Origin: a virus
Lineage: Duplodnaviria > Caudoviricetes
Direction: 5' to 3' (one strand)
DNA: 62,243 bases
IMG/VR virus record: IMGVR_UViG_3300043408_000040
Coordinates: 1 to 62,243 of that record
Shown: one piece after another, positions 385-9,719 of the stretch
How the letters are laid out: each line of letters opens with the position of its first letter
Position numbering within the stretch: position 1 is the stretch's first letter
Notes under the pieces: generated by a model
Databases searched by the model: none
Told to the model about the DNA's origin: nothing
The model's input: the letters and a program-made list of their open reading frames with translations, nothing else
Position numbers and translations under genes: made by a program

Positions 385-1572
385 TTAATTTCCCTTGACG
401 CAGAGGACCTGCTTCAGGGTGTGTACTACCTCTACGAGGTCAGTTTGGTTTGCCATTACTTGGTCGATGTCCTTGTAACTGGCTGGGATTTCGTCGATCA
501 CGCCTTCGTCTTTGCGGCACTCCACGCCTTCAGTCTGGGCGATCAGATCAGTCAGGCTGAATCGTCGCTTAGCTTCAGCGCGGGACATGACTCGACCTGC
601 TCCGTGTGAACAGGAACAGTAGGATTGAAGGTCACCTTTTCCTCGCACGATGTAACTGCGCTGGCCCATACTTCCGGGGATGATGCCAAGATCGCCATCG
701 CGTGCCCGAATTGCACCTTTGCGGGTGACCCACATATTGCGTCCGAAGTGGTTTTCTTTTTCGACATAGTTGTGATGGCAGTTGATTGCTTCCTGTGTGA
801 TGGTGAACTCAGGCATCATGCCGCGCATAGCTTCAATGACTTGGATCATCATGCGGCGACGGTTCTCAAGCGCATAGTTCTGCGCCCAGCCCACTGCGTA
901 CATGTAGTCGTCGAAGTCCTCCGTGTCTTCAGGGAAGTATGCGAGGTTGTCGTCAGGCAGCGTGATGAAGAATTGCTCCATCTGGCGCTTGGCCTTGGCG
1001 ATGTAGTATGTGCCGATCATGTTTCCAATGCCACGGGAACCCGAGTGCAGCATGATCCACACGTCCTGGTTCTCGTCGATGCAGATTTCAATGAAGTGGT
1101 TACCCGAACCCAGTGAACCGATCTGTGATGCAGCCTTGGCGTAGAACTGCGCAGTGCGGCCTTTGAATATAGGGTCAATGATTGTCTTGCCCATCATCGG
1201 AGTGAACTCGCCAATGTCCGTGCTGTGATCGTGTGCGCCACCAGCACCCAGAGGCACGCGGCGCTCAATCTCATCGCGCAAAGGCTTGAGGTTGTCAGGT
1301 AGATCGCTGGCCTTTAGGGATAGGCGCACAGCATTCATGCCGCAGCCAATGTCCACGCCAACGGCGGCGGGTATCACGGCCTTCTCTGTGGCGATCACAG
1401 TGCCCACGGTTGAGCCGATGCCAGCGTGAACGTCAGGCATGCAGGCCACGCCATTGGAGGCAATGAATGGCAAGCGCGACAGGTTCTTGAGTTGTGTCAG
1501 AGCCGAGGCCTCAACATCGTCTGTCCAGATTTTGATGGGGCGTGAGCCTTCATCTTGAATGACTTGTTTCAT
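385..1572 (-). CDS. rtcB: RtcB family RNA ligase
   Basis: MPDVHAG, VGVDIGCG, GSGNHFIE, LHSGSRG, CHHN, IPGSMG, SHGAGR, DEIPASYK motifs. Confidence 0.97.
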   Translation of the reverse strand: MKQVIQDEGSRPIKIWTDDVEASALTQLKNLSRLPFIASNGVACMPDVHAGIGSTVGTVIATEKAVIPAAVGVDIGCGMNAVRLSLKASDLPDNLKPLRDEIERRVPLGAGGAHDHSTDIGEFTPMMGKTIIDPIFKGRTAQFYAKAASQIGSLGSGNHFIEICIDENQDVWIMLHSGSRGIGNMIGTYYIAKAKRQMEQFFITLPDDNLAYFPEDTEDFDDYMYAVGWAQNYALENRRRMMIQVIEAMRGMMPEFTITQEAINCHHNYVEKENHFGRNMWVTRKGAIRARDGDLGIIPGSMGQRSYIVRGKGDLQSYCSCSHGAGRVMSRAEAKRRFSLTDLIAQTEGVECRKDEGVIDEIPASYKDIDQVMANQTDLVEVVHTLKQVLCVKGN

Positions 1573-2468
1573 GCTTTTTCCTTTGACGCCATGTAGTCCT
1601 GATGCTGCTTGCAGTAAGGAGCCACTTGGCAGAATGATTCACAGCGAGTGCGGCCGCCCTCACGAACTTCAATCAGAAACTTTTCGCCCTTCTTGGCTTT
1701 TTCTGTTGCGGCAGCCAGGGCTGTCTCTGCTGCTTCGCGTGCTTCGTGGACGCTCTTTGCTCTGACGTTGCCATCCTTCTTGAGTGCGTACGTTGTCGGC
1801 TTCTCCCAGGTTTCCTCTGGTGTGCACTCGGGCATCTCGCCGTCGGTTTCCATCTCAAAGAATGCGTCGCCATGCAAAGAGATGCGGCTGCGCACGTAGG
1901 CCTCACGATCAGCAAACGACCACAGAGGGATGTCAATCACCACGATAGGTGCCTTGGGGTAGCCTTCGCGTGTAGCTGCTTCACGGCGGCTCCAGTCGCG
2001 CACGATGGCCACGATCTGCAGCTTCTTCACGGGGATCTTTTTGGCCGCTTCGACAAGGTACGCGTAGCTGTTGAGCTGGTTGTGCCAGTCTTGCTTTTCA
2101 TTAAGTACACTCCATGCTGAGGTGGTCTTGTAGTCCGACACAATGATGCCGTCCTCTTCGATCTCCTGCAGGTCGATCGCGCCACTGATGTGCATGTTGT
2201 CCAGCACGATGTGGATGCGCTCTTCAACGATGTGGTTGTCGCCTTTGCCGTGCTCAAGAACATTGTGAATAGCAGTACCAAAGATGCTCCACACCATTGA
2301 TGATGCATCCTCGGTCAATTCATCCCAATGCTTGCGCTTGAGTTGCACGATACGCGGGCTGTTGAGCAGCTCCGTCACCGACATGTTGGCTTTTCCTTTG
2401 CTGTATTCCGGGCGTGCAATCACGTTCATGATTGTTTCGGGCATGCCAAATTCATTTGTAAGTTTCAT
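1569..2468 (-). CDS. PD-(D/E)XK exonuclease, Cas4-like phage recombination nuclease
   Basis: GTAIH, SGAIDL, DYKTT, QLNSY motifs; C-terminal RCESFCQVAPYC. Confidence 0.8.
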   Translation of the reverse strand: MKLTNEFGMPETIMNVIARPEYSKGKANMSVTELLNSPRIVQLKRKHWDELTEDASSMVWSIFGTAIHNVLEHGKGDNHIVEERIHIVLDNMHISGAIDLQEIEEDGIIVSDYKTTSAWSVLNEKQDWHNQLNSYAYLVEAAKKIPVKKLQIVAIVRDWSRREAATREGYPKAPIVVIDIPLWSFADREAYVRSRISLHGDAFFEMETDGEMPECTPEETWEKPTTYALKKDGNVRAKSVHEAREAAETALAAATEKAKKGEKFLIEVREGGRTRCESFCQVAPYCKQHQDYMASKEKA

Positions 2469-2707
2469 TGCTGGCGCTCCTTGACCATGATGGCTGTTTG
2501 CTTATGCACAGACATGAACAAGTCAACGGCTTCATGCATCGACATTCCGGCTGCCGAGCAGAAGGATGAAAAGATGATTGCGGCTGATGTAGAGGCGACG
2601 GCAACAACGCCATCAGAGTCGTCGAGCAGTGTCTGCCCGTGCTTGTTTGCAAGCCCAATTGACTTTCGCAGAACTTCGATGCTTTCTTGTCTTTCTTCTG
2701 GCGTCAT
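2465..2707 (-). CDS. Hypothetical protein
   Basis: AGGAG RBS before ATG at 2707; stop overlaps next start. Confidence 0.7.
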   Translation of the reverse strand: MTPEERQESIEVLRKSIGLANKHGQTLLDDSDGVVAVASTSAAIIFSSFCSAAGMSMHEAVDLFMSVHKQTAIMVKERQQ

Positions 2708-2738
2708 TTGTTTACTCCTGTGTGGTGGGTGAGGCTTG

Positions 2739-2766
2739 ATTGTACCTGTTATATCAGCATCGTCAA
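2739..2766 (-). promoter_or_regulatory. Sigma70-like promoter of leftward early operon
   Basis: TTGACG-16 nt-TACAAT on minus strand. Confidence 0.65.
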
Positions 2767-2811
2767 CACCCAATACAATATCTTTTCAAAATATTTTCAT
2801 AGGGACAAACC

Positions 2812-3111
2812 ATGAGAAGAGCTGCACGGCGAGATCACGGGGAGCAAGACATCATCAAGGCCATGAGGGCCTGCGGTGCGTTCGTCAAGGTCATCAATGA
2901 CGAGGGCACGTTCGATCTCCTTGTTGGCTGCACAGGTTTTTCAGGTCGGTTTTACACCTTGCTCCTTGAAATCAAAGACGGCACCAAGCCGCCATCAGCC
3001 AGGCGACTCACGGACGCAGAGCAGAAGTTCCACGACGAGTGGCCCGGCGACAACTTGCACATCGTCAACAGTGTTCAAGAGGCATTGGACCTGCTCAAGA
3101 CTTGCGTATAG
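2812..3111 (+). CDS. VRR-NUC / Holliday-junction resolvase-like nuclease
   Basis: FDLLVG...LLEIKDG...RLTDAEQKFHDEW pattern. Confidence 0.7.
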   Translation: MRRAARRDHGEQDIIKAMRACGAFVKVINDEGTFDLLVGCTGFSGRFYTLLLEIKDGTKPPSARRLTDAEQKFHDEWPGDNLHIVNSVQEALDLLKTCV

Positions 3112-3114
3112 AAT
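3085..3114 (+). promoter_or_regulatory. Putative promoter for small RNA
   Basis: TTGGAC-18 nt-TAGAAT. Confidence 0.45.
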
Positions 3115-3120
3115 CGCGTC

Positions 3121-3184
3121 CTGAACATTCATGTGTTCTCCTGTTGGGTAATTTCCCCTCACCTCAGACGTGGGGGGATTTTTT
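3121..3184 (+). ncRNA. Candidate trans-acting antisense sRNA (anti-SD/anti-AUG seed plus intrinsic terminator)
   Basis: 5' hairpin GAACA/TGTTC, seed ATTCATGTGTTCTCCT, terminator TCCCCTCAC/GTGGGGGGA followed by T6. Confidence 0.5.
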
Positions 3185-3191
3185 CAGGGCC

Positions 3192-3307
3192 ACCAACCAT
3201 GCGTCTTTGGGACTTACGTCCGGGCAAAACAAGGATTCATGGTTGATGGTTAAGCGCACTGCTTGCAAGGCGTAGGGCTGGGGATTCTCGGTCGCCATCA
3301 GCCCATG
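3192..3307 (+). ncRNA. Structured RNA element with two mutually exclusive folds
   Basis: 3238-3250 can pair with 3192-3201 or with 3295-3307. Confidence 0.4.
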
Positions 3308-3356
3308 TTGTACATTAGTTCGATTCCATGTATTATTTGATGCAAAGGAGTCAGCA

Positions 3357-3893
3357 ATGTTCACTGAAAAGCAAATTCAAAATTTCCTGTCGAAAACTCA
3401 AGCGCAGGAAAACGGCTGCATACATCACTTGGCCAAGTCAAAAAAACATGGCTACCCGTACGTCCACTTGCGCATTGGGTCTGGTGTTGAAGTAAGAACG
3501 TCAGCCCACAGGGTTGCTTGGATCATCAAGAATGGTCCAATACAAGGCGGTCTATATGTTCTGCACAAATGCGACAACCGGATGTGCTGCAACCCAGATC
3601 ACCTTTTTCTTGGTACGCACCAAGACAACATGGATGACATGAGGAGCAAAGGCCGATCCAAGCTGATCGGCGCAGGAAGAGACTACGAGCTGCTTCAGAG
3701 TTTTGCTCAGTCCGAGTCGGCTCAAGAAAAACGCAGAGAGACATTTGCGCGGATTGGCCATCAGCGTGGCGCGGCAAACTCGCAGCATGGCACGTACTGG
3801 ATCACAAACGGTCTAACCAGCCAAAGGTGGAGGGATTCATTGGGTGAAATTCCGGATGGATTTAAAAGAGGCCGGGTTCAGAAAAGCACTTGA
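3357..3893 (+). CDS. Free-standing HNH homing endonuclease
   Basis: SAHRVAW, VLHKCDNRMCCNPDHLFLGTHQDNMDDM; C-terminal WITNG...GFKRGR tail; AAGGAG RBS. Confidence 0.9.
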   Translation: MFTEKQIQNFLSKTQAQENGCIHHLAKSKKHGYPYVHLRIGSGVEVRTSAHRVAWIIKNGPIQGGLYVLHKCDNRMCCNPDHLFLGTHQDNMDDMRSKGRSKLIGAGRDYELLQSFAQSESAQEKRRETFARIGHQRGAANSQHGTYWITNGLTSQRWRDSLGEIPDGFKRGRVQKST

Positions 3894-3920
3894 CACTAAC
3901 CCTGTAGTGTGTTGTATACT
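3890..3920 (+). promoter_or_regulatory. Putative promoter for downstream ncRNA region
   Basis: TTGACA-19 nt-TATACT (spacer is long). Confidence 0.5.
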
Positions 3921-3926
3921 GGAGCC

Positions 3927-4024
3927 GTTGTCGTTGCACACAACAAGTCAGAAGCCGTTTATGCATGCGTACTGCCCTCATCCTTGAGGGGTGCAACCAG
4001 TTCGCAGTCGTAAACGGCTTTTTT
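3927..4024 (+). ncRNA. Pseudoknotted leader/attenuator ending in a U-tract
   Basis: Loop GTTGCAC (3933-39) complementary to GTGCAAC (3991-97); stem AAGCCGTTTA/TAAACGGCTT followed by Ts. Confidence 0.55.
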
Positions 4025-4034
4025 CATTTGTGCT

Positions 4035-4241
4035 GACTGTTTAAAGATGATGCGGCGTGGACGGACACGCTAGGTGCGGTGCAGAAAAATTCAATGCGGC
4101 GAGGAGTAATTTCCCTGTGGTCGCACTGCGAAGGTACTGACAGGAAATTGGAGTTGGCCCTGGGGACGCCCATCCAACCGGCGGCAGCGGCCAGTGGGCT
4201 GCCAATCTGGAATCAAGCCCAGACATCATCTTTAAACAGTC
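4035..4241 (+). ncRNA. Multibranched RNA closed by a perfect 18-bp stem, with tRNA-like arms
   Basis: GACTGTTTAAAGATGATG / CATCATCTTTAAACAGTC with several internal hairpins. Confidence 0.55.
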
Positions 4242-4249
4242 TCCTCGAC

Positions 4250-4520
4250 TTCCGTACTCCGCACGATAGCAAGCACCTGCATGGGTGGCGCGGAAGGGAA
4301 CACGCGTCTCCGAACGACCAACGGAGGCGTGCCAGACTAACTGTGGTACTGGCGCAGGCATGAGTGATAACGGTGACGGCTACAGCACTCCTCCCGATGA
4401 AGCAGTCGTTTATGACGGGCTACCCAGCGATGGATGCCAGCTAGCCACAGGGCCGACAGATGCGCGGCTGTGGTGGGTACGGTGACTGGATACCTTTATA
4501 CGGGGTCCCCAGTCACCCGG
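4250..4520 (+). ncRNA. Hairpin-dense structured non-coding region
   Basis: At least 6 consecutive stems; no credible ORF with RBS. Confidence 0.45.
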
Positions 4521-7559: not shown

Positions 7560-7630
7560 TTGTTTCTCCAAAACGCCCACAAATACACGGCTGTGTGAGC
7601 AATGCCGATGAGTACCATCCACCAAGTCAT
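7556..7630 (-). CDS. 24-aa hydrophobic peptide
   Basis: MTWWMVLIGIAHTAVYLWAFWRNK; ATGA-coupled on both sides. Confidence 0.5.
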   Translation of the reverse strand: MTWWMVLIGIAHTAVYLWAFWRNK

Positions 7631-8154
7631 GTGTTCTTTTCCTTGAGTTTGGCTTCGATGGCTCGATCAATGAAGTCAATCAACGCAATGCCACGCACAC
7701 GCTGTTTCCATTCTGTTGGCTCGCCTGTTTTTGAGTGCGGTTCCCATGAATGTTCCCACACATGGAATTGCGTGACGCTTTCGCTGTCGTAACTGTTCTC
7801 CATCAAGAAGCGCCAACGCTGAGCATCCCTTTCTTGACTTGTCAGCGGCTTGCGCTGTGCTGGTGGGGATGTGTAGAGGGGCGTCACGGTCACTTTGCCC
7901 ATGTATTGACCCGCCATCTGCTCTGCCAGTTCTCTATACTTTTGCATTGGATACTTGCTGCTGAACTCAAGACCCCGTGAATGTGACAGCGCCCACGCCA
8001 CAGGCTCCTGCACAAGTGCTGCGGTTGGAGAGTTCTGCAAAAGTCTTTTTTGAATAGCCGTACTTACATCAACTGTGTCTTTATTCCAGTATCCGTCACG
8101 CACTCCTCGCTCAATCGCCTCCAAAGCAAGTCGCAATAATTTTTCATCGTTCAT
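7627..8154 (-). CDS. Modular hypothetical protein (QEPVA / PLYTSPP modules)
   Basis: AGGAG RBS; mosaic motifs. Confidence 0.7.
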   Translation of the reverse strand: MNDEKLLRLALEAIERGVRDGYWNKDTVDVSTAIQKRLLQNSPTAALVQEPVAWALSHSRGLEFSSKYPMQKYRELAEQMAGQYMGKVTVTPLYTSPPAQRKPLTSQERDAQRWRFLMENSYDSESVTQFHVWEHSWEPHSKTGEPTEWKQRVRGIALIDFIDRAIEAKLKEKNT

Positions 8155-8864
8155 TTTGTTTCTCCTGTTGTTGGTGCTGCGGTTGGGGTGGTGTAAACGG
8201 CGTAGGCTCCTTCGCCCAAGCTGCCCCAATACTCAAAGTCGTAGTTTCCGTGGCCCTTGTAAAACCAGATTTTCAACGTGCCTACAGGCTCCTGCACAGG
8301 TGCTGGCTGTGCGGGTGGGGTGTTGTAGATGACATCAAGCGCAGCGGAATACTCGGCGTAGTCGTCATCACTGCTGAGATTGTTCCGCAAGAAGCGATCA
8401 ATCATGTCGTATGCCTCGCTCGCCACAGGCTCCTGCTGTGCTGGTTGCTCACCAACTAACTCGCGTTCGATCTGCCCTGCCAAGGCTTGCTGATATTCCT
8501 CGTTGTGACACATGGGAAACTTGCATTGGTGCTGTGCTGGCTGCTCGGCTTTCAGTGCGCCAATGGCTGCAAGGATCGGCTCTGCTCCGCCTTCTTCTGG
8601 GTCGCACCCAAGTGCATCGCCAATTTGCCCGAGCGCCGAACATGCGGCTTCAAACATGCGCTTGTATTGTGCAAGCTCAATGTCAATCGGACGGTCTTCC
8701 AGCGTGACAGCCAATTTAGAAGGCTGTGATGGCTGCTCTATCGCTTCGTTGGCCAGTGCTTCTCGCAGTGATTTTTCAGCCGCAATCCATTCGTCCACAC
8801 TGACATCGCCTTGATTTCGCATTACCTCCAACGCCAGCTTCATTGCTTCAGTTTGTTTTGTCAT
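8151..8864 (-). CDS. Modular hypothetical protein (EQPAQQEPVA modules)
   Basis: AGGAG RBS; repeated linker motifs. Confidence 0.7.
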   Translation of the reverse strand: MTKQTEAMKLALEVMRNQGDVSVDEWIAAEKSLREALANEAIEQPSQPSKLAVTLEDRPIDIELAQYKRMFEAACSALGQIGDALGCDPEEGGAEPILAAIGALKAEQPAQHQCKFPMCHNEEYQQALAGQIERELVGEQPAQQEPVASEAYDMIDRFLRNNLSSDDDYAEYSAALDVIYNTPPAQPAPVQEPVGTLKIWFYKGHGNYDFEYWGSLGEGAYAVYTTPTAAPTTGETK

Positions 8865-9136
8865 GTGCTCTCCTTAAGCAGCTTTTTCACTTGTTCGTAT
8901 ACGGCATTTCTTTCGGCGTTGTCGGACTCCAACTTATCCCATCCTGCGTAGCGCATCTCGTTTTCGCAGCGCTGCAGTAGTTCATGCACTTCGCGCAGGC
9001 AGTCGGCAGACTTTCCGTGTAAAGGCCATTGCATTGTCTTTTCTAGCATGGCGGCAAGGCGCAATGGTTTTGGAAGTTTGCTCACGCGCAGCAGTTCTGC
9101 GGTGTCTTCTTCGCTTGCGTATTGGTTCTGATTCAT
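8861..9136 (-). CDS. Hypothetical protein, first gene of leftward operon
   Basis: AAGGAG RBS; downstream of promoter. Confidence 0.7.
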   Translation of the reverse strand: MNQNQYASEEDTAELLRVSKLPKPLRLAAMLEKTMQWPLHGKSADCLREVHELLQRCENEMRYAGWDKLESDNAERNAVYEQVKKLLKEST

Positions 9137-9181
9137 GTGCTCTCCTTTTGGCAACTTCCACAAAATAAGTTGCTGAGGTGT

Positions 9182-9210
9182 AGTCTATCGCAATTTTTTG
9201 CAGTCTGCAA
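9182..9210 (-). promoter_or_regulatory. Leftward sigma70-like promoter
   Basis: TTGCAG-17 nt-TAGACT. Confidence 0.6.
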
Positions 9211-9227
9211 TATATTTTTACACCATC

Positions 9228-9256
9228 TTGCAAAGAAGTGTGATTTGGTGTAGCAT
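9228..9256 (+). promoter_or_regulatory. Rightward sigma70-like promoter (probable leaderless transcript)
   Basis: TTGCAA-17 nt-TAGCAT, ATG 7 nt downstream. Confidence 0.6.
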
Positions 9257-9263
9257 ACGTCAA

Positions 9264-9719
9264 ATGAGAAAACAAACCAGAAGAAAAATTTACGCGCTCG
9301 TGAACCCCATCGAGTACGCCATCACCGGCGCCAGCATCACAGATGAATCGAGTCTGAAAATCTTACGCGACAAGGAGAATGGAAGCATGGAGGCATTCAG
9401 GACTGGCAAGGCAAACAAGCAGGACTGGAACAACATCAATGCAGTCTGCAATCTTGCCGAGTCTATGGCTGCCGCCGACATTGGCCCAGAGGTTATGGAA
9501 TACAAGGCCATCGCAGAGATGCACTTGATTGATTCAAGGGATCGGTACCTGAAGACAGGAAGAATGGGGGCTACTGGCCTCGCCCTTCAGGCCTTCAAGG
9601 ACATCATTGAGTATCACGAACTGCAGCGCACGGCTGTGGCACGCAGTGTGTATGAGGGACACATTAAGAAGGTGACCGACATGATCAAGAGTCGCTCACC
9701 GAAGATCAAGTTTTTATAG
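9264..9719 (+). CDS. Conserved phage hypothetical protein
   Basis: MRKQTRRKIYALVNPIEYAI... Confidence 0.75.
   Translation: MRKQTRRKIYALVNPIEYAITGASITDESSLKILRDKENGSMEAFRTGKANKQDWNNINAVCNLAESMAAADIGPEVMEYKAIAEMHLIDSRDRYLKTGRMGATGLALQAFKDIIEYHELQRTAVARSVYEGHIKKVTDMIKSRSPKIKFL

What the first reader, a model, noticed from the sequence alone, without database searches (positions are those of the whole stretch)
3121..3184. Candidate sRNA complementary to the SD/AUG regions of consecutive phage genes
Seen: a ~64-nt unit between a + strand promoter and a T6 terminator carries ATTCATGTGTTCTCCT(GTTG). It matches the + strand at the translation starts of minus-strand genes: 9131-9146 (15/16, the difference gives a G-U pair), 8861-8874 (13/14, G-U), 8160-8170 (11/11) and 7627-7636 (10/10). 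These are the first four genes of the leftward operon. The anti-AUG sits in a hairpin loop. Inference: a trans-acting multi-target translational repressor acting as a timing switch, possibly also hitting host mRNAs.
Basis: partly seen in the sequence, partly recalled or inferred. Interest (0 to 1): 0.72.

Follow-up and report, generated by a model that had tools for sequence, protein, structure and literature searches.

The report
Conserved phage RNA mirroring gene starts
Just after a small nuclease-like gene, this uncultured freshwater phage and its relatives keep a short promoter-to-terminator unit whose RNA would be the mirror image of a ribosome-binding site, so it is probably a small translation-blocking RNA of a known kind, though no transcript or target has been shown.

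Summary
ATTCATGTGTTCTCCT (3127-3142) lies between the stop of a conserved 99-aa + gene and a strong + terminator, and it matches the start regions of four consecutive leftward genes.

- **Conservation:** about 25 distinct related viral contigs keep the same layout: stop codon inside a TAnnnT hexamer, usually TTCAT, then TTCTCCT, then hairpin and T-run. The antisense ORF behind the "RBS+ATG" runs from 0 to 45 codons, so it is not a gene.
- **Wider set:** the same terminator sequence ends other stand-alone phage units that have their own -10 boxes and CU-rich stretches. Several units score below threshold against Rfam RF02278, the betaproteobacterial CU-rich "toxic" sRNAs.

My best reading (about 0.5) is a + strand RNA of about 62 nt, made from its own promoter or from the 3' UTR, that masks strong translation starts.

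The four-gene timing switch is not supported.
- Only two targets are strong.
- Five of 105 reverse-complemented real gene starts pair as well.
- Seed and target do not co-vary across relatives, and the one orthologous target is not matched.
- The nearest relative lacks the anti-AUG.
- No RNA data exist.

This scan has reported phage anti-SD sRNAs on other DNA before.

The parts
2812..3111 (+). Conserved 99-aa gene. Distant homologues are annotated by depositors as endonuclease or tRNA-endonuclease-like. Its 3' end carries the putative promoter of the unit.
   Evidence: ORF. 66 relatives in viral contigs. No Pfam, PHROG or NCBIfam hit. Depositor annotations of distant homologues.
3086..3114 (+). 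Promoter-like site: -35 TGGACC (3086-3091), 17-nt spacer, -10 TAGAAT (3109-3114). The -10 contains the TAG stop codon of the 99-aa gene.
   Evidence: 9 of 12. A TAnnnT hexamer over the stop occurs in 26 of 26 distinct unit-bearing sequences, against 1 of 20 distinct distant homologues without the unit. One exception is L133.
3121..3184 (+). Predicted small RNA of about 60-64 nt. The 5' end is inferred from the -10; the 3' end is the terminator T-run.
   Evidence: Fold -22.7 kcal/mol, z -2.56. Layout conserved in relatives. Sub-threshold RF02278 match at 3134-3185, 18.8 bits.
3123..3138 (+). 5' hairpin GAACAU/GUGUUC with loop UCAU (3129-3132). The anti-AUG CAU is at 3130-3132.
   Evidence: CAU unpaired probability 1.0. 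Hairpins with other stems but UUCAU(G) in the loop occur in L070, L019, L094 and L097.
3136..3142 (+). CU-rich anti-Shine-Dalgarno stretch TTCTCCT, the most conserved part of the unit.
   Evidence: Present as [TC]CTCC in 22 of 25 distinct units. In the window it is predicted mostly paired (unpaired probability 0.11).
3154..3184 (+). Intrinsic terminator: stem-loop 3154-3178 plus T6 at 3179-3184.
   Evidence: Compensatory stem changes among relatives. The near-identical hairpin CCCACCTNAGACGTGGGG occurs in 109 viral stretches.
9131..9151 (-). Translation start region of the 91-aa first gene of the leftward operon. Best predicted target.
   Evidence: 15/16. 25/30 local alignment, score 33 against shuffles 15.5 +/- 2.3. 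Duplex -35.6 kcal/mol, rank 1 of 106.
8861..8874 (-). Translation start region of the 237-aa second gene. Second named target.
   Evidence: 13/14. Duplex -27.3 kcal/mol, rank 4 of 106.
8160..8170 (-). SD region of the 175-aa third gene. Weak, generic match.
   Evidence: 11/11. Duplex -23.9 kcal/mol, rank 7 of 106.
7627..7637 (-). Start of a 24-codon ORF that overlaps the stop of the third gene. Weak match, and the reality of the gene is uncertain.
   Evidence: 11/11. Translation. Duplex -22.8 kcal/mol, rank 11 of 106.
2995..3132 (-). 45-codon antisense ORF behind the SD-ATG. Considered and rejected as a gene.
   Evidence: No family hit. The equivalent ORF in relatives is 0, 5, 9, 11, 18, 20, 21, 25, 26, 32 or 44 codons. 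It lies antisense to the conserved 99-aa gene.

Best explanation
A short + strand regulatory RNA of about 62 nt. It is transcribed either from a promoter embedded in the last codons of the 99-aa gene, with the stop codon inside the -10 box, or as the 3' end of that gene's mRNA. It ends at the intrinsic terminator at 3154-3184.

Its 5' part carries a CU-rich anti-Shine-Dalgarno stretch and, in the window, an anti-AUG presented in a hairpin loop. Together these are the antisense of the stereotyped translation start AGGAGA-N5-AUGAA used by many genes of this phage clade.

The inferred action is base pairing in trans with such start regions, which blocks ribosome loading. In this phage the extended 19-of-21 match makes the first two genes of the leftward early operon the likeliest targets.

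Shown: the sequence layout, its conservation, the absence of a conserved antisense ORF, and the predicted pairing. Inferred: transcription, the 5' end, trans action and repression.
For: 1. **Conserved layout.** 32 of the 33 loci I read, all with at least 45% protein identity, have a hairpin plus T-run closely after the gene's stop. The exception is L033. Of 25 distinct units, 22 keep [TC]CTCC ahead of the terminator, and 18 of those 22 have a CAT within 16 nt upstream. The spacers and the surrounding sequence differ freely.
2. **Terminator stems change by compensatory pairs**.
3. **-10 box over the stop codon.**
   - The stop lies in TAnnnT in 26 of 26 distinct unit-bearing sequences, as five hexamer variants: TAGAAT, TAAACT, TAAGAT, TAATAT and TAGTAT.
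   - A T-T/G-G-started hexamer sits 17 nt upstream: TTGACA in L030/31, TTTACA in L029, TGGACA in L020 and TTGCAC in most.
   - Among 20 distinct distant homologues without the unit, 13 use TGA and only 1 fits TAnnnT.
   - By eye, other promoters here have the same TTGCAN-17-TAnnnT style.
4. **The antisense ORF is not conserved**, and no minus-strand promoter-like site lies between 2766 and 9834.
5. **The gene's own start is not a target.** It ranks 72 of 106, which argues against cis autoregulation.
6. **Shared terminator in other contexts.**
   - The same terminator sequence occurs in 109 viral stretches.
   - Of 53 distinct contexts read, 22 have a 6-nt CU motif within 60 nt upstream, against 4 of 210 background windows.
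   - Five of the six stand-alone units inspected show a -10-like box by eye, such as TGTATAAT, TGCTATAGT or TTGCAA-17-TACACT; the sixth (L134) I did not assess. Four of the six sit divergently upstream of a minus-strand ORF, and two (L176, L208) lie between convergent large genes.
7. **Sub-threshold Rfam matches to RF02278:** window 18.8 bits, L007 32.4, L019 20.9, L176 31.2, L197 25.8, against a gathering score of 50. That family is 57-67-nt CU-rich sRNAs whose unpaired stretches are reverse complements of RBSs (PMC5688073, passages).
8. **Pairing in the window.** 0 of 200 shuffled seeds reach the real best or top-4 energies.
9. **Downstream context.** In relatives the unit is followed by a promoter that drives tRNAs (L019) or a structured RNA (L084), so this region acts as an RNA-gene island.
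Against: - No RNA run holds this DNA, so there is no expression evidence either way.
- The window's -35 is poor (TGGACC), and promoter-like sites are not enriched locally.
- L133 keeps the unit but has a TGA stop.
- Five of 105 reverse-complemented real gene starts pair as well as the real seed, and 9 of 105 do so for the top-4 mean. The complementarity is therefore what any antisense of a strong start would give.
- No seed-target co-variation was detected. Own-seed ranks on own loci among 23 seeds are 2, 1, 5, 1, 6, 13, 9, 8, 9, 8, 4, 5, 17, 4, 21, 23, 19, 23, 19, 7, 11, 2 and 8.
- The 91-aa orthologue (found in L074 and L075; tested on L075) is not matched by its own seed.
- L068 and L069 lack the anti-AUG, and L090, L092 and L095/96 lack the CU motif.
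- The CU stretch is not predicted to be more accessible than in shuffled controls (0.60 against 0.57, with 11 of 22 above their own control). In the window it is mostly paired (0.11).
Confidence: 0.5

Rival explanations
1. A cis-acting 3' UTR element only. The CU-rich tract and hairpins belong to the end of the 99-aa gene's mRNA, serving terminator efficiency, stability or chaperone binding, and have no trans targets. The resemblance to gene starts would then be incidental to a pyrimidine-rich, structured 3' end.
For: - The unit always sits directly between that gene's stop and its terminator.
- No co-variation with targets was detected.
- The CU stretch is not especially accessible.
- The window's -35 is weak.
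Against: - The gene's own start is a poor partner, at rank 72 of 106.
- The TAnnnT hexamer over the stop is kept in 26 of 26 distinct sequences.
- Stand-alone units with the same terminator and CU motifs exist without an upstream co-oriented gene.
- A CAT at SD-like spacing recurs in 18 of 22 units, which a stability element does not need.
Confidence: 0.2
2. A functional translation start on the minus strand. AGGAGAACACATG (3132-3144 read on the minus strand) would load ribosomes on a leftward read-through or antisense transcript, as a short non-conserved ORF or a ribosome-loading site. The + strand complementarity would then be a by-product.
For: - A perfect SD and an ATG at 4-10 nt spacing, often followed by AAA, occur in about 15 of 23 distinct units despite differing spacers.
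- A leftward operon converges on the unit both in the window and in L084.
- Weak Rfam matches on the minus strand to Mu-gpT-DE, a hairpin plus SD plus AUG motif: 16-20 bits against a gathering score of 49.
Against: - ORF length varies from 0 to 45 codons, and the start codon is absent in L068/69, L085 and the L086 group.
- The ORF is antisense to a conserved protein gene.
- No minus-strand promoter-like site lies nearby.
- No family hit for the 45-aa product.
- The hairpin has a T-run on the + strand only.
Confidence: 0.12
3. A non-functional relic or chance. Under this reading, a copy of a stereotyped gene-start linker was left by module shuffling next to an ordinary terminator.
For: - The 30-nt similarity to the 91-aa gene's start region (25/30) looks like shared descent.
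- Gene starts in this clade are stereotyped, since foreign seeds often fit as well as own seeds.
Against: The motif persists at the same place across relatives whose protein has diverged to about 55-60% identity, while neighbouring bases, spacer lengths and terminator stems have all changed.
Confidence: 0.08

Closest known systems
Betaproteobacterial 'toxic' / double-hairpin sRNAs (Rfam RF02278; B. cenocepacia ncS03, ncS05, ncS27, ncS62; bdhR1)
   Same: - Length of 57-67 nt.
[quoted passage not shown]
- Predicted interactions concentrated at gene starts (PMC5688073, passages read; PMC11722255, passages read).
- It is the best-scoring Rfam family for the window unit and for several related units.
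   Different: - Scores of 18.8 to 32.4 bits lie well below the gathering score of 50.
- The family's central CU-loop hairpin is missing in the window (7 nt where the model has 21).
- The unit is phage-borne.
- It has an anti-AUG as well as an anti-SD.
- Its promoter lies inside the upstream gene.
SprX (RsaOR) of Staphylococcus aureus converting phages
   Same: A phage-encoded sRNA whose CU-rich loop pairs with the translation initiation signals of a target, spoVG (PMC4005690, abstract and passages read).
   Different: The host phylum and the sequence are unrelated. SprX acts on host genes and has experimental proof, whereas here no target has been shown.
c4 antisense RNA of phages P1 and P7
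   Same: A phage RNA that acts in trans on complementary sites around a ribosome-binding site of the phage's own gene, with the pairing bases thought to lie in loops (review PMC12197685, passages read).
   Different: No Rfam match to a C4 family appeared in any scan. That c4 is processed from a longer transcript and serves immunity is recalled, not checked here. There is no sequence or structural likeness.
3' UTR-derived sRNAs that share the terminator of an upstream mRNA (recalled examples: CpxQ, DapZ, SroC)
   Same: The unit sits at the 3' end of a protein gene and uses that gene's terminator. An internal promoter within the coding 3' end is one of the two known routes for such sRNAs (recalled, not checked in a paper here).
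   Different: The route (own promoter or processing) is unknown here, and the context is phage.

Membership tests
Rfam RF02278 Betaproteobacteria toxic sRNA | Covariance-model score at or above the curated gathering score (50 bits) | tested here: not met
   Window 18.8 bits. The best related unit, L007, scores 32.4 bits. L176 scores 31.2 and L197 25.8.
Rfam RF02278 Betaproteobacteria toxic sRNA | [quoted passage not shown] | tested here: inconclusive
   A 5' hairpin plus a terminator are present. The CU stretch is the reverse complement of an SD, but it is predicted mostly paired in the window (0.11 unpaired). The model's first hairpin is largely absent.
Independent sRNA gene (own promoter plus intrinsic terminator) | Intrinsic terminator on the RNA's strand | tested here: met
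   9-bp stem, 6 GC pairs, 7-nt loop, T6. Compensatory stem changes in relatives.
Independent sRNA gene (own promoter plus intrinsic terminator) | Own promoter and a defined 5' end | tested here: inconclusive
   9 of 12 match. TAnnnT over the stop in 26 of 26 distinct sequences against 1 of 20 homologues without the unit. The sequences are related by descent, L133 is an exception, and no transcript data exist.
Trans-acting base-pairing sRNA with defined targets | Seed and target sites co-vary across relatives | tested here: not met
   Cross-matrix of 23 seeds by 23 loci shows no own-locus preference. The orthologue of the top target in L075 pairs at -19.4 kcal/mol with its own seed.
Trans-acting base-pairing sRNA with defined targets | Expression of the RNA and repression of the target | not testable with these tools
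   This needs a transcript assay and reporter fusions. The one search for sequencing runs is described under Tried and rejected.
Cis-antisense pair / type I toxin-antitoxin | Conserved small ORF on the opposite strand whose start the RNA overlaps | tested here: not met
   The antisense ORF is 0 to 45 codons in relatives. No family hit.
P1/P7 c4-type antisense RNA (Rfam C4) | Match to the family model | tested here: not met
   No such match at the gathering score or at E up to 10.

The most novel reading that the evidence does not exclude
Uncultured freshwater phages may carry a modular family of small RNAs built on one shared terminator scaffold (CCCCACCUNAGACGUGGGG plus U-run) with exchangeable CU-rich seeds. 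The window's member, nested in the end of a nuclease-like gene, would copy both RNA elements that the ribosome uses to find a start: the 16S anti-SD and the initiator anticodon CAU. In that way it would mask the phage's own stereotyped early gene starts, and perhaps strong host starts, as an RNA-only translational shut-off.
Probability: 0.15. Interest if true: 0.7.

Novelty: new member of a known kind. Interest (0 to 1): 0.42.

Why it matters
Few phage-encoded small RNAs have known roles. If this unit is expressed, it adds a conserved and easily testable example from uncultured freshwater phages, in which one short RNA could tune or shut off a class of early genes through their ribosome-binding sites. 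The terminator sequence recurs behind different CU-rich seeds in many phage contigs, and it was absent from the 401 bacterial genomes sampled. That hints at a phage-specific sRNA scaffold worth a systematic survey. The mechanism itself, a CU-rich seed masking an SD, is well known.

Tried and rejected
**Expression**
- The one search for sequencing runs listed 19 DNA holders, mostly labelled freshwater metagenomes, and no RNA holder. I did not use read laying. This says nothing about expression.

**Known RNA and phage matches**
- The Rfam gathering scan of the window gave 0 matches, and ARAGORN found 0 tRNAs.
- Megablast of 2400-4400 against named phages found no match.
- An exact 36-nt search in viral contigs returned 0 stretches.

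**Named phages with distant homologues of the 99-aa protein** (41 records, under 42% identity)
- I read three loci.
- The Vibrio phage gene is overlapped by the next gene.
- Acinetobacter phage IME-AB2 has a promoter-like site and a terminator after the gene but no CU stretch.
- E. coli phage vB_EcoM_APEC has a long AT-rich gap with no such unit.

**Co-variation**
- No usable signal. The candidate gene-start sets are heuristic (any start with an SD-like word and an ORF of at least 40 aa), locus sizes differ, and flanks reach at most 10 kb. Absence of a signal is therefore weak evidence.

**Accessibility**
- A first version picked the wrong motif in some units and was redone. It showed no enrichment.

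**Second-best predicted site**
- The site at 9387 (-31.8 kcal/mol) lies inside ORF 9198-9719, whose true start is unsettled; by eye it may be a leaderless ATG at 9264. I make nothing of it.

**Host**
- The genome-contig scan found 2 loci, one with the unit, in a MAG titled only 'Gammaproteobacteria bacterium'.
- The terminator pattern was not found in that genome, in 7 genomes of its order, or in 401 sampled genomes of its class. The host remains unknown.

**Proteins**
- The PDB sequence search and NCBIfam gave nothing meaningful for the 99-aa protein or the target proteins.

**Literature**
- Kimelman et al. 2012 was not in the library search. I know it only as a reference cited in PMC11722255.
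The supplements of PMC5688073 (alignments, upstream motif) might refine the RF02278 comparison.

**Not attempted**
- I did not build a covariance model, because the terminator would have dominated it.
- I computed no chance expectation for the 109 viral matches.
- Only 80 of the 109 matching loci were returned, and I read those.

Full report
**What is there.** The window is a whole IMG/VR virus record, estimated 75% complete.
- **Gene:** a 99-aa ORF runs on the + strand from 2812 to 3111.
- **Motif:** sixteen bases after its TAG stop lies ATTCATGTGTTCTCCT (3127-3142).
- **Terminator:** a 9-bp, GC-rich stem-loop (3154-3178) and T6 follow.
- **Promoter-like site:** TGGACC, a 17-nt spacer and TAGAAT end at 3114, so the stop codon is part of the -10 hexamer.
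- **Antisense reading:** on the minus strand the motif reads as a textbook SD plus ATG, opening a 45-codon ORF antisense to the end of the 99-aa gene.

**The observation.**
They sit at the starts of three consecutive leftward genes of 91, 237 and 175 aa and of a 24-codon ORF.
- Against shuffled sequence the excess is clear: 4 matches against 0.39 expected, and 0 of 200 shuffled seeds pair as well with the 106 start regions.
- Any antisense of a strong translation start will match other starts, so I ran a fairer control. I reverse-complemented each of 105 heuristically called gene starts and paired it with all the others. Five of 105 did as well as the real seed, and 9 of 105 did so for the mean of the top four.
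- With the full 33-nt unpaired part, the named targets rank 1, 4, 7 and 11 of 106. Only the first two are strong, at -35.6 and -27.3 kcal/mol.
- The match to the 91-aa gene's start is a 30-nt local similarity of 25/30, scoring 33 against 15.5 +/- 2.3 in shuffles.

**Is the + gene or the antisense ORF real?**
- The 99-aa protein has 66 relatives in viral contigs, down to about 32% identity, and 41 distant ones in named phages. Some depositors call those endonuclease or tRNA-endonuclease-like. It has no Pfam, PHROG or NCBIfam hit.
- In relatives the antisense ORF behind the SD-ATG is 0, 5, 9, 11, 18, 20, 21, 25, 26, 32 or 44 codons long. Its start codon is missing in several lineages.

**Conservation of the unit.**
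- I read the DNA after the stop in 33 loci and again with 10-kb flanks. All but L033 have a hairpin plus T-run within about 40-90 nt.
- Of 25 distinct units, 22 keep [TC]CTCC before the hairpin. L090, L092 and L095/96 do not.
- Of those 22, 18 have a CAT within 16 nt upstream.
- Spacer lengths, flanking bases and terminator stems differ, and the stems change by compensatory pairs.
- The closest relative (L068/L069, 87% protein identity) has a deletion that removes the anti-AUG but keeps TGTTTCTCCTGTTGGGT. The CU-rich stretch is therefore the core, and the anti-AUG is dispensable.

**Folds** show two arrangements.
- **Arrangement 1:** the window, L070, L019, L094 and L097 have a 5' hairpin with different stems and UUCAU(G) in the loop, followed by the CU stretch.
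- **Arrangement 2:** the L072-L084 group pairs UUCAU with a downstream (A/G)UGAA and holds the CU stretch in the loop.
- **Accessibility:** the predicted accessibility of the CU stretch is no higher than in shuffled controls (0.60 against 0.57). In the window it is mostly paired (0.11), while the CAU is fully open.

**A promoter?**
- The stop codon lies in TAnnnT in 26 of 26 distinct unit-bearing sequences, as five hexamer variants. A T-T/G-G hexamer sits 17 nt upstream, ranging from a perfect TTGACA to the window's weak TGGACC.
- Among 20 distinct distant homologues without the unit, 13 end in TGA and only one fits TAnnnT.
- L133 keeps the unit with a TGA stop.
- By eye, other promoters of these phages have the same TTGCAN-17-TAnnnT style, for example in the 9163-9264 divergent region of the window and right after the unit in L084.
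- This is suggestive but not proof. The sequences are related, and the -35 lies in coding sequence.

**A wider set of units.**
- The terminator hairpin is nearly identical in many relatives, so I searched CCCACCTNAGACGTGGGG in viral contigs. It gave 109 stretches, of which 80 loci were returned.
- Of 53 distinct contexts, 44 have a T-run and 22 have a 6-nt CU motif within 60 nt upstream, against 4 of 210 background windows.
- Eight or so of those 22 are units attached to the 99-aa gene. The rest are four or five other types.
- I inspected six of these stand-alone units.
  - Five show a -10-like box by eye: TGTATAAT (L151), TTGCAA-17-TACACT (L138 and L197), TGCTATAGT (L176) and TAATAT/TATACT (L208). 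I did not assess the sixth, L134.
  - Four (L151, L138, L197, L134) lie divergently upstream of a minus-strand ORF, and two (L176, L208) lie between convergent large genes.
- Other contexts are plain gene ends without a CU stretch.
- The pattern was not found in 401 sampled genomes of the class that contains the one MAG carrying the unit.

**Known families.**
- Nothing reaches a gathering score.
- The best sub-threshold family is RF02278: 18.8 bits in the window, 32.4 in L007, 20.9 in L019, 31.2 in L176 and 25.8 in L197, against a gathering score of 50.
- From the passages I read in PMC5688073, this family consists of 57-67-nt double-hairpin sRNAs of Burkholderia. Their unpaired CU-rich stretches are reverse complements of RBSs, and overexpression slows growth. 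PMC11722255 links it to a conserved Bordetella sRNA (passages).
- The unit works like these sRNAs but is not a member.
- Phage precedents are SprX of S. aureus converting phages, where a CU-rich loop pairs at the spoVG start (PMC4005690, abstract and passages), and c4 of P1/P7 (review PMC12197685, passages).

**Targets and co-variation.**
- I paired 24-nt seed cores of 23 distinct units with heuristic start regions of all 23 loci. Own seeds rank first or second only for the window, L068, L070 and L075, and the L086 clade ranks last. There is no general preference for a phage's own gene starts.
- The 91-aa top target has an orthologue only in L074/L075 (76% identity). Its start pairs with its own seed at -19.4 kcal/mol, against -36.3 in the window.
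- The divergent 80-aa neighbour has orthologues in 13 loci, and own-seed ranks there are mixed: 6, 1, 2, 3, 9, 8, 6, 2, 3, 3, 9, 4, 1 of 13.
- Foreign seeds often fit as well. The window's seed matches the 80-aa gene's start in L077 over 16 contiguous bases.
- The seeds therefore approximate the antisense of a clade-wide consensus start rather than tracking particular genes.

**Verdict.**
- The unit is most likely a real, selected + strand RNA element that mirrors a translation start. I give about 0.5 to a small RNA masking strong starts in trans, and in this phage the first two leftward early genes are the likeliest targets.
- Rivals:
  - a purely cis 3' UTR element (0.2);
  - a real minus-strand ribosome-loading site (0.12);
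  - a relic (0.08).
- The specific four-gene timing switch is not supported.
- The kind is known, and this scan has already reported phage anti-SD sRNAs on other DNA.
- The new points are this family, its promoter nested in a gene end, and the shared terminator scaffold.

Noticed in passing
window 3185-3356, with HNH gene 3357-3893: A 172-nt structured stretch (MFE -61.6 kcal/mol, z -2.87) starts right after the T-run and leads into an HNH endonuclease gene (Pfam HNH_3). Relatives either have a similar element after the terminator (stems differ, e.g. CCATCACG...CGTGATGG against CCACCAACCATG...CATGGTTGATGG) or go straight to a promoter. It looks like a mobile HNH insert with a structured leader. 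No Rfam hit.
   Followed up: partly
L084 10350-10552 (also L014, L018, L003, L006 and L012 by eye): Directly after the unit, relatives without the HNH insert have a promoter (TTGCAC, 18 nt, TATACT). It is followed by a structured RNA of about 170 nt closed by a long stem and a T-run (z -3.51). In L019 the same position holds four tRNA genes. This region of the phages is an RNA-gene island.
   Followed up: partly
viral loci L139, L141, L157, L167, L168, L179, L182, L189, L195, L205: The same terminator sequence, loop included, also ends a protein gene whose product finishes in ...GMFGS.GA, in about ten other phage contigs with no CU stretch. I did not explain why one hairpin sequence, including its loop, is shared across such different contexts.
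   Followed up: no
window 9163-9266: Divergent early promoter region, read by eye. Leftward, TTGCAG-17-TAGACT gives a leader of about 45 nt with a perfect 7-bp hairpin (GCAACTT/AAGTTGC) just before the 91-aa gene's SD. Rightward, TTGCAA-17-TAGCAT would start transcription at or next to ATG 9264, suggesting a leaderless mRNA for ORF 9198-9719.
   Followed up: no
L129 1779-1855 (Acinetobacter phage IME-AB2): The distant homologue of the 99-aa gene is also followed by a promoter-like site (TTGCAA, 17 nt, TATATT) and a short unit that ends in a terminator. This unit has no CU-rich stretch.
   Followed up: no
L176 1702-1769: A near-threshold match to the Rfam int-alpA RNA (34.3 bits, gathering 35.8) in one of the contigs that carry a stand-alone CU-rich unit.
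   Followed up: no
window 385-2707: The leftward operon beside the 99-aa gene encodes RtcB RNA ligase (Pfam E 3e-127), a PD-(D/E)XK exonuclease and an 80-aa protein conserved next to the 99-aa gene in 13 relatives.
   Followed up: partly
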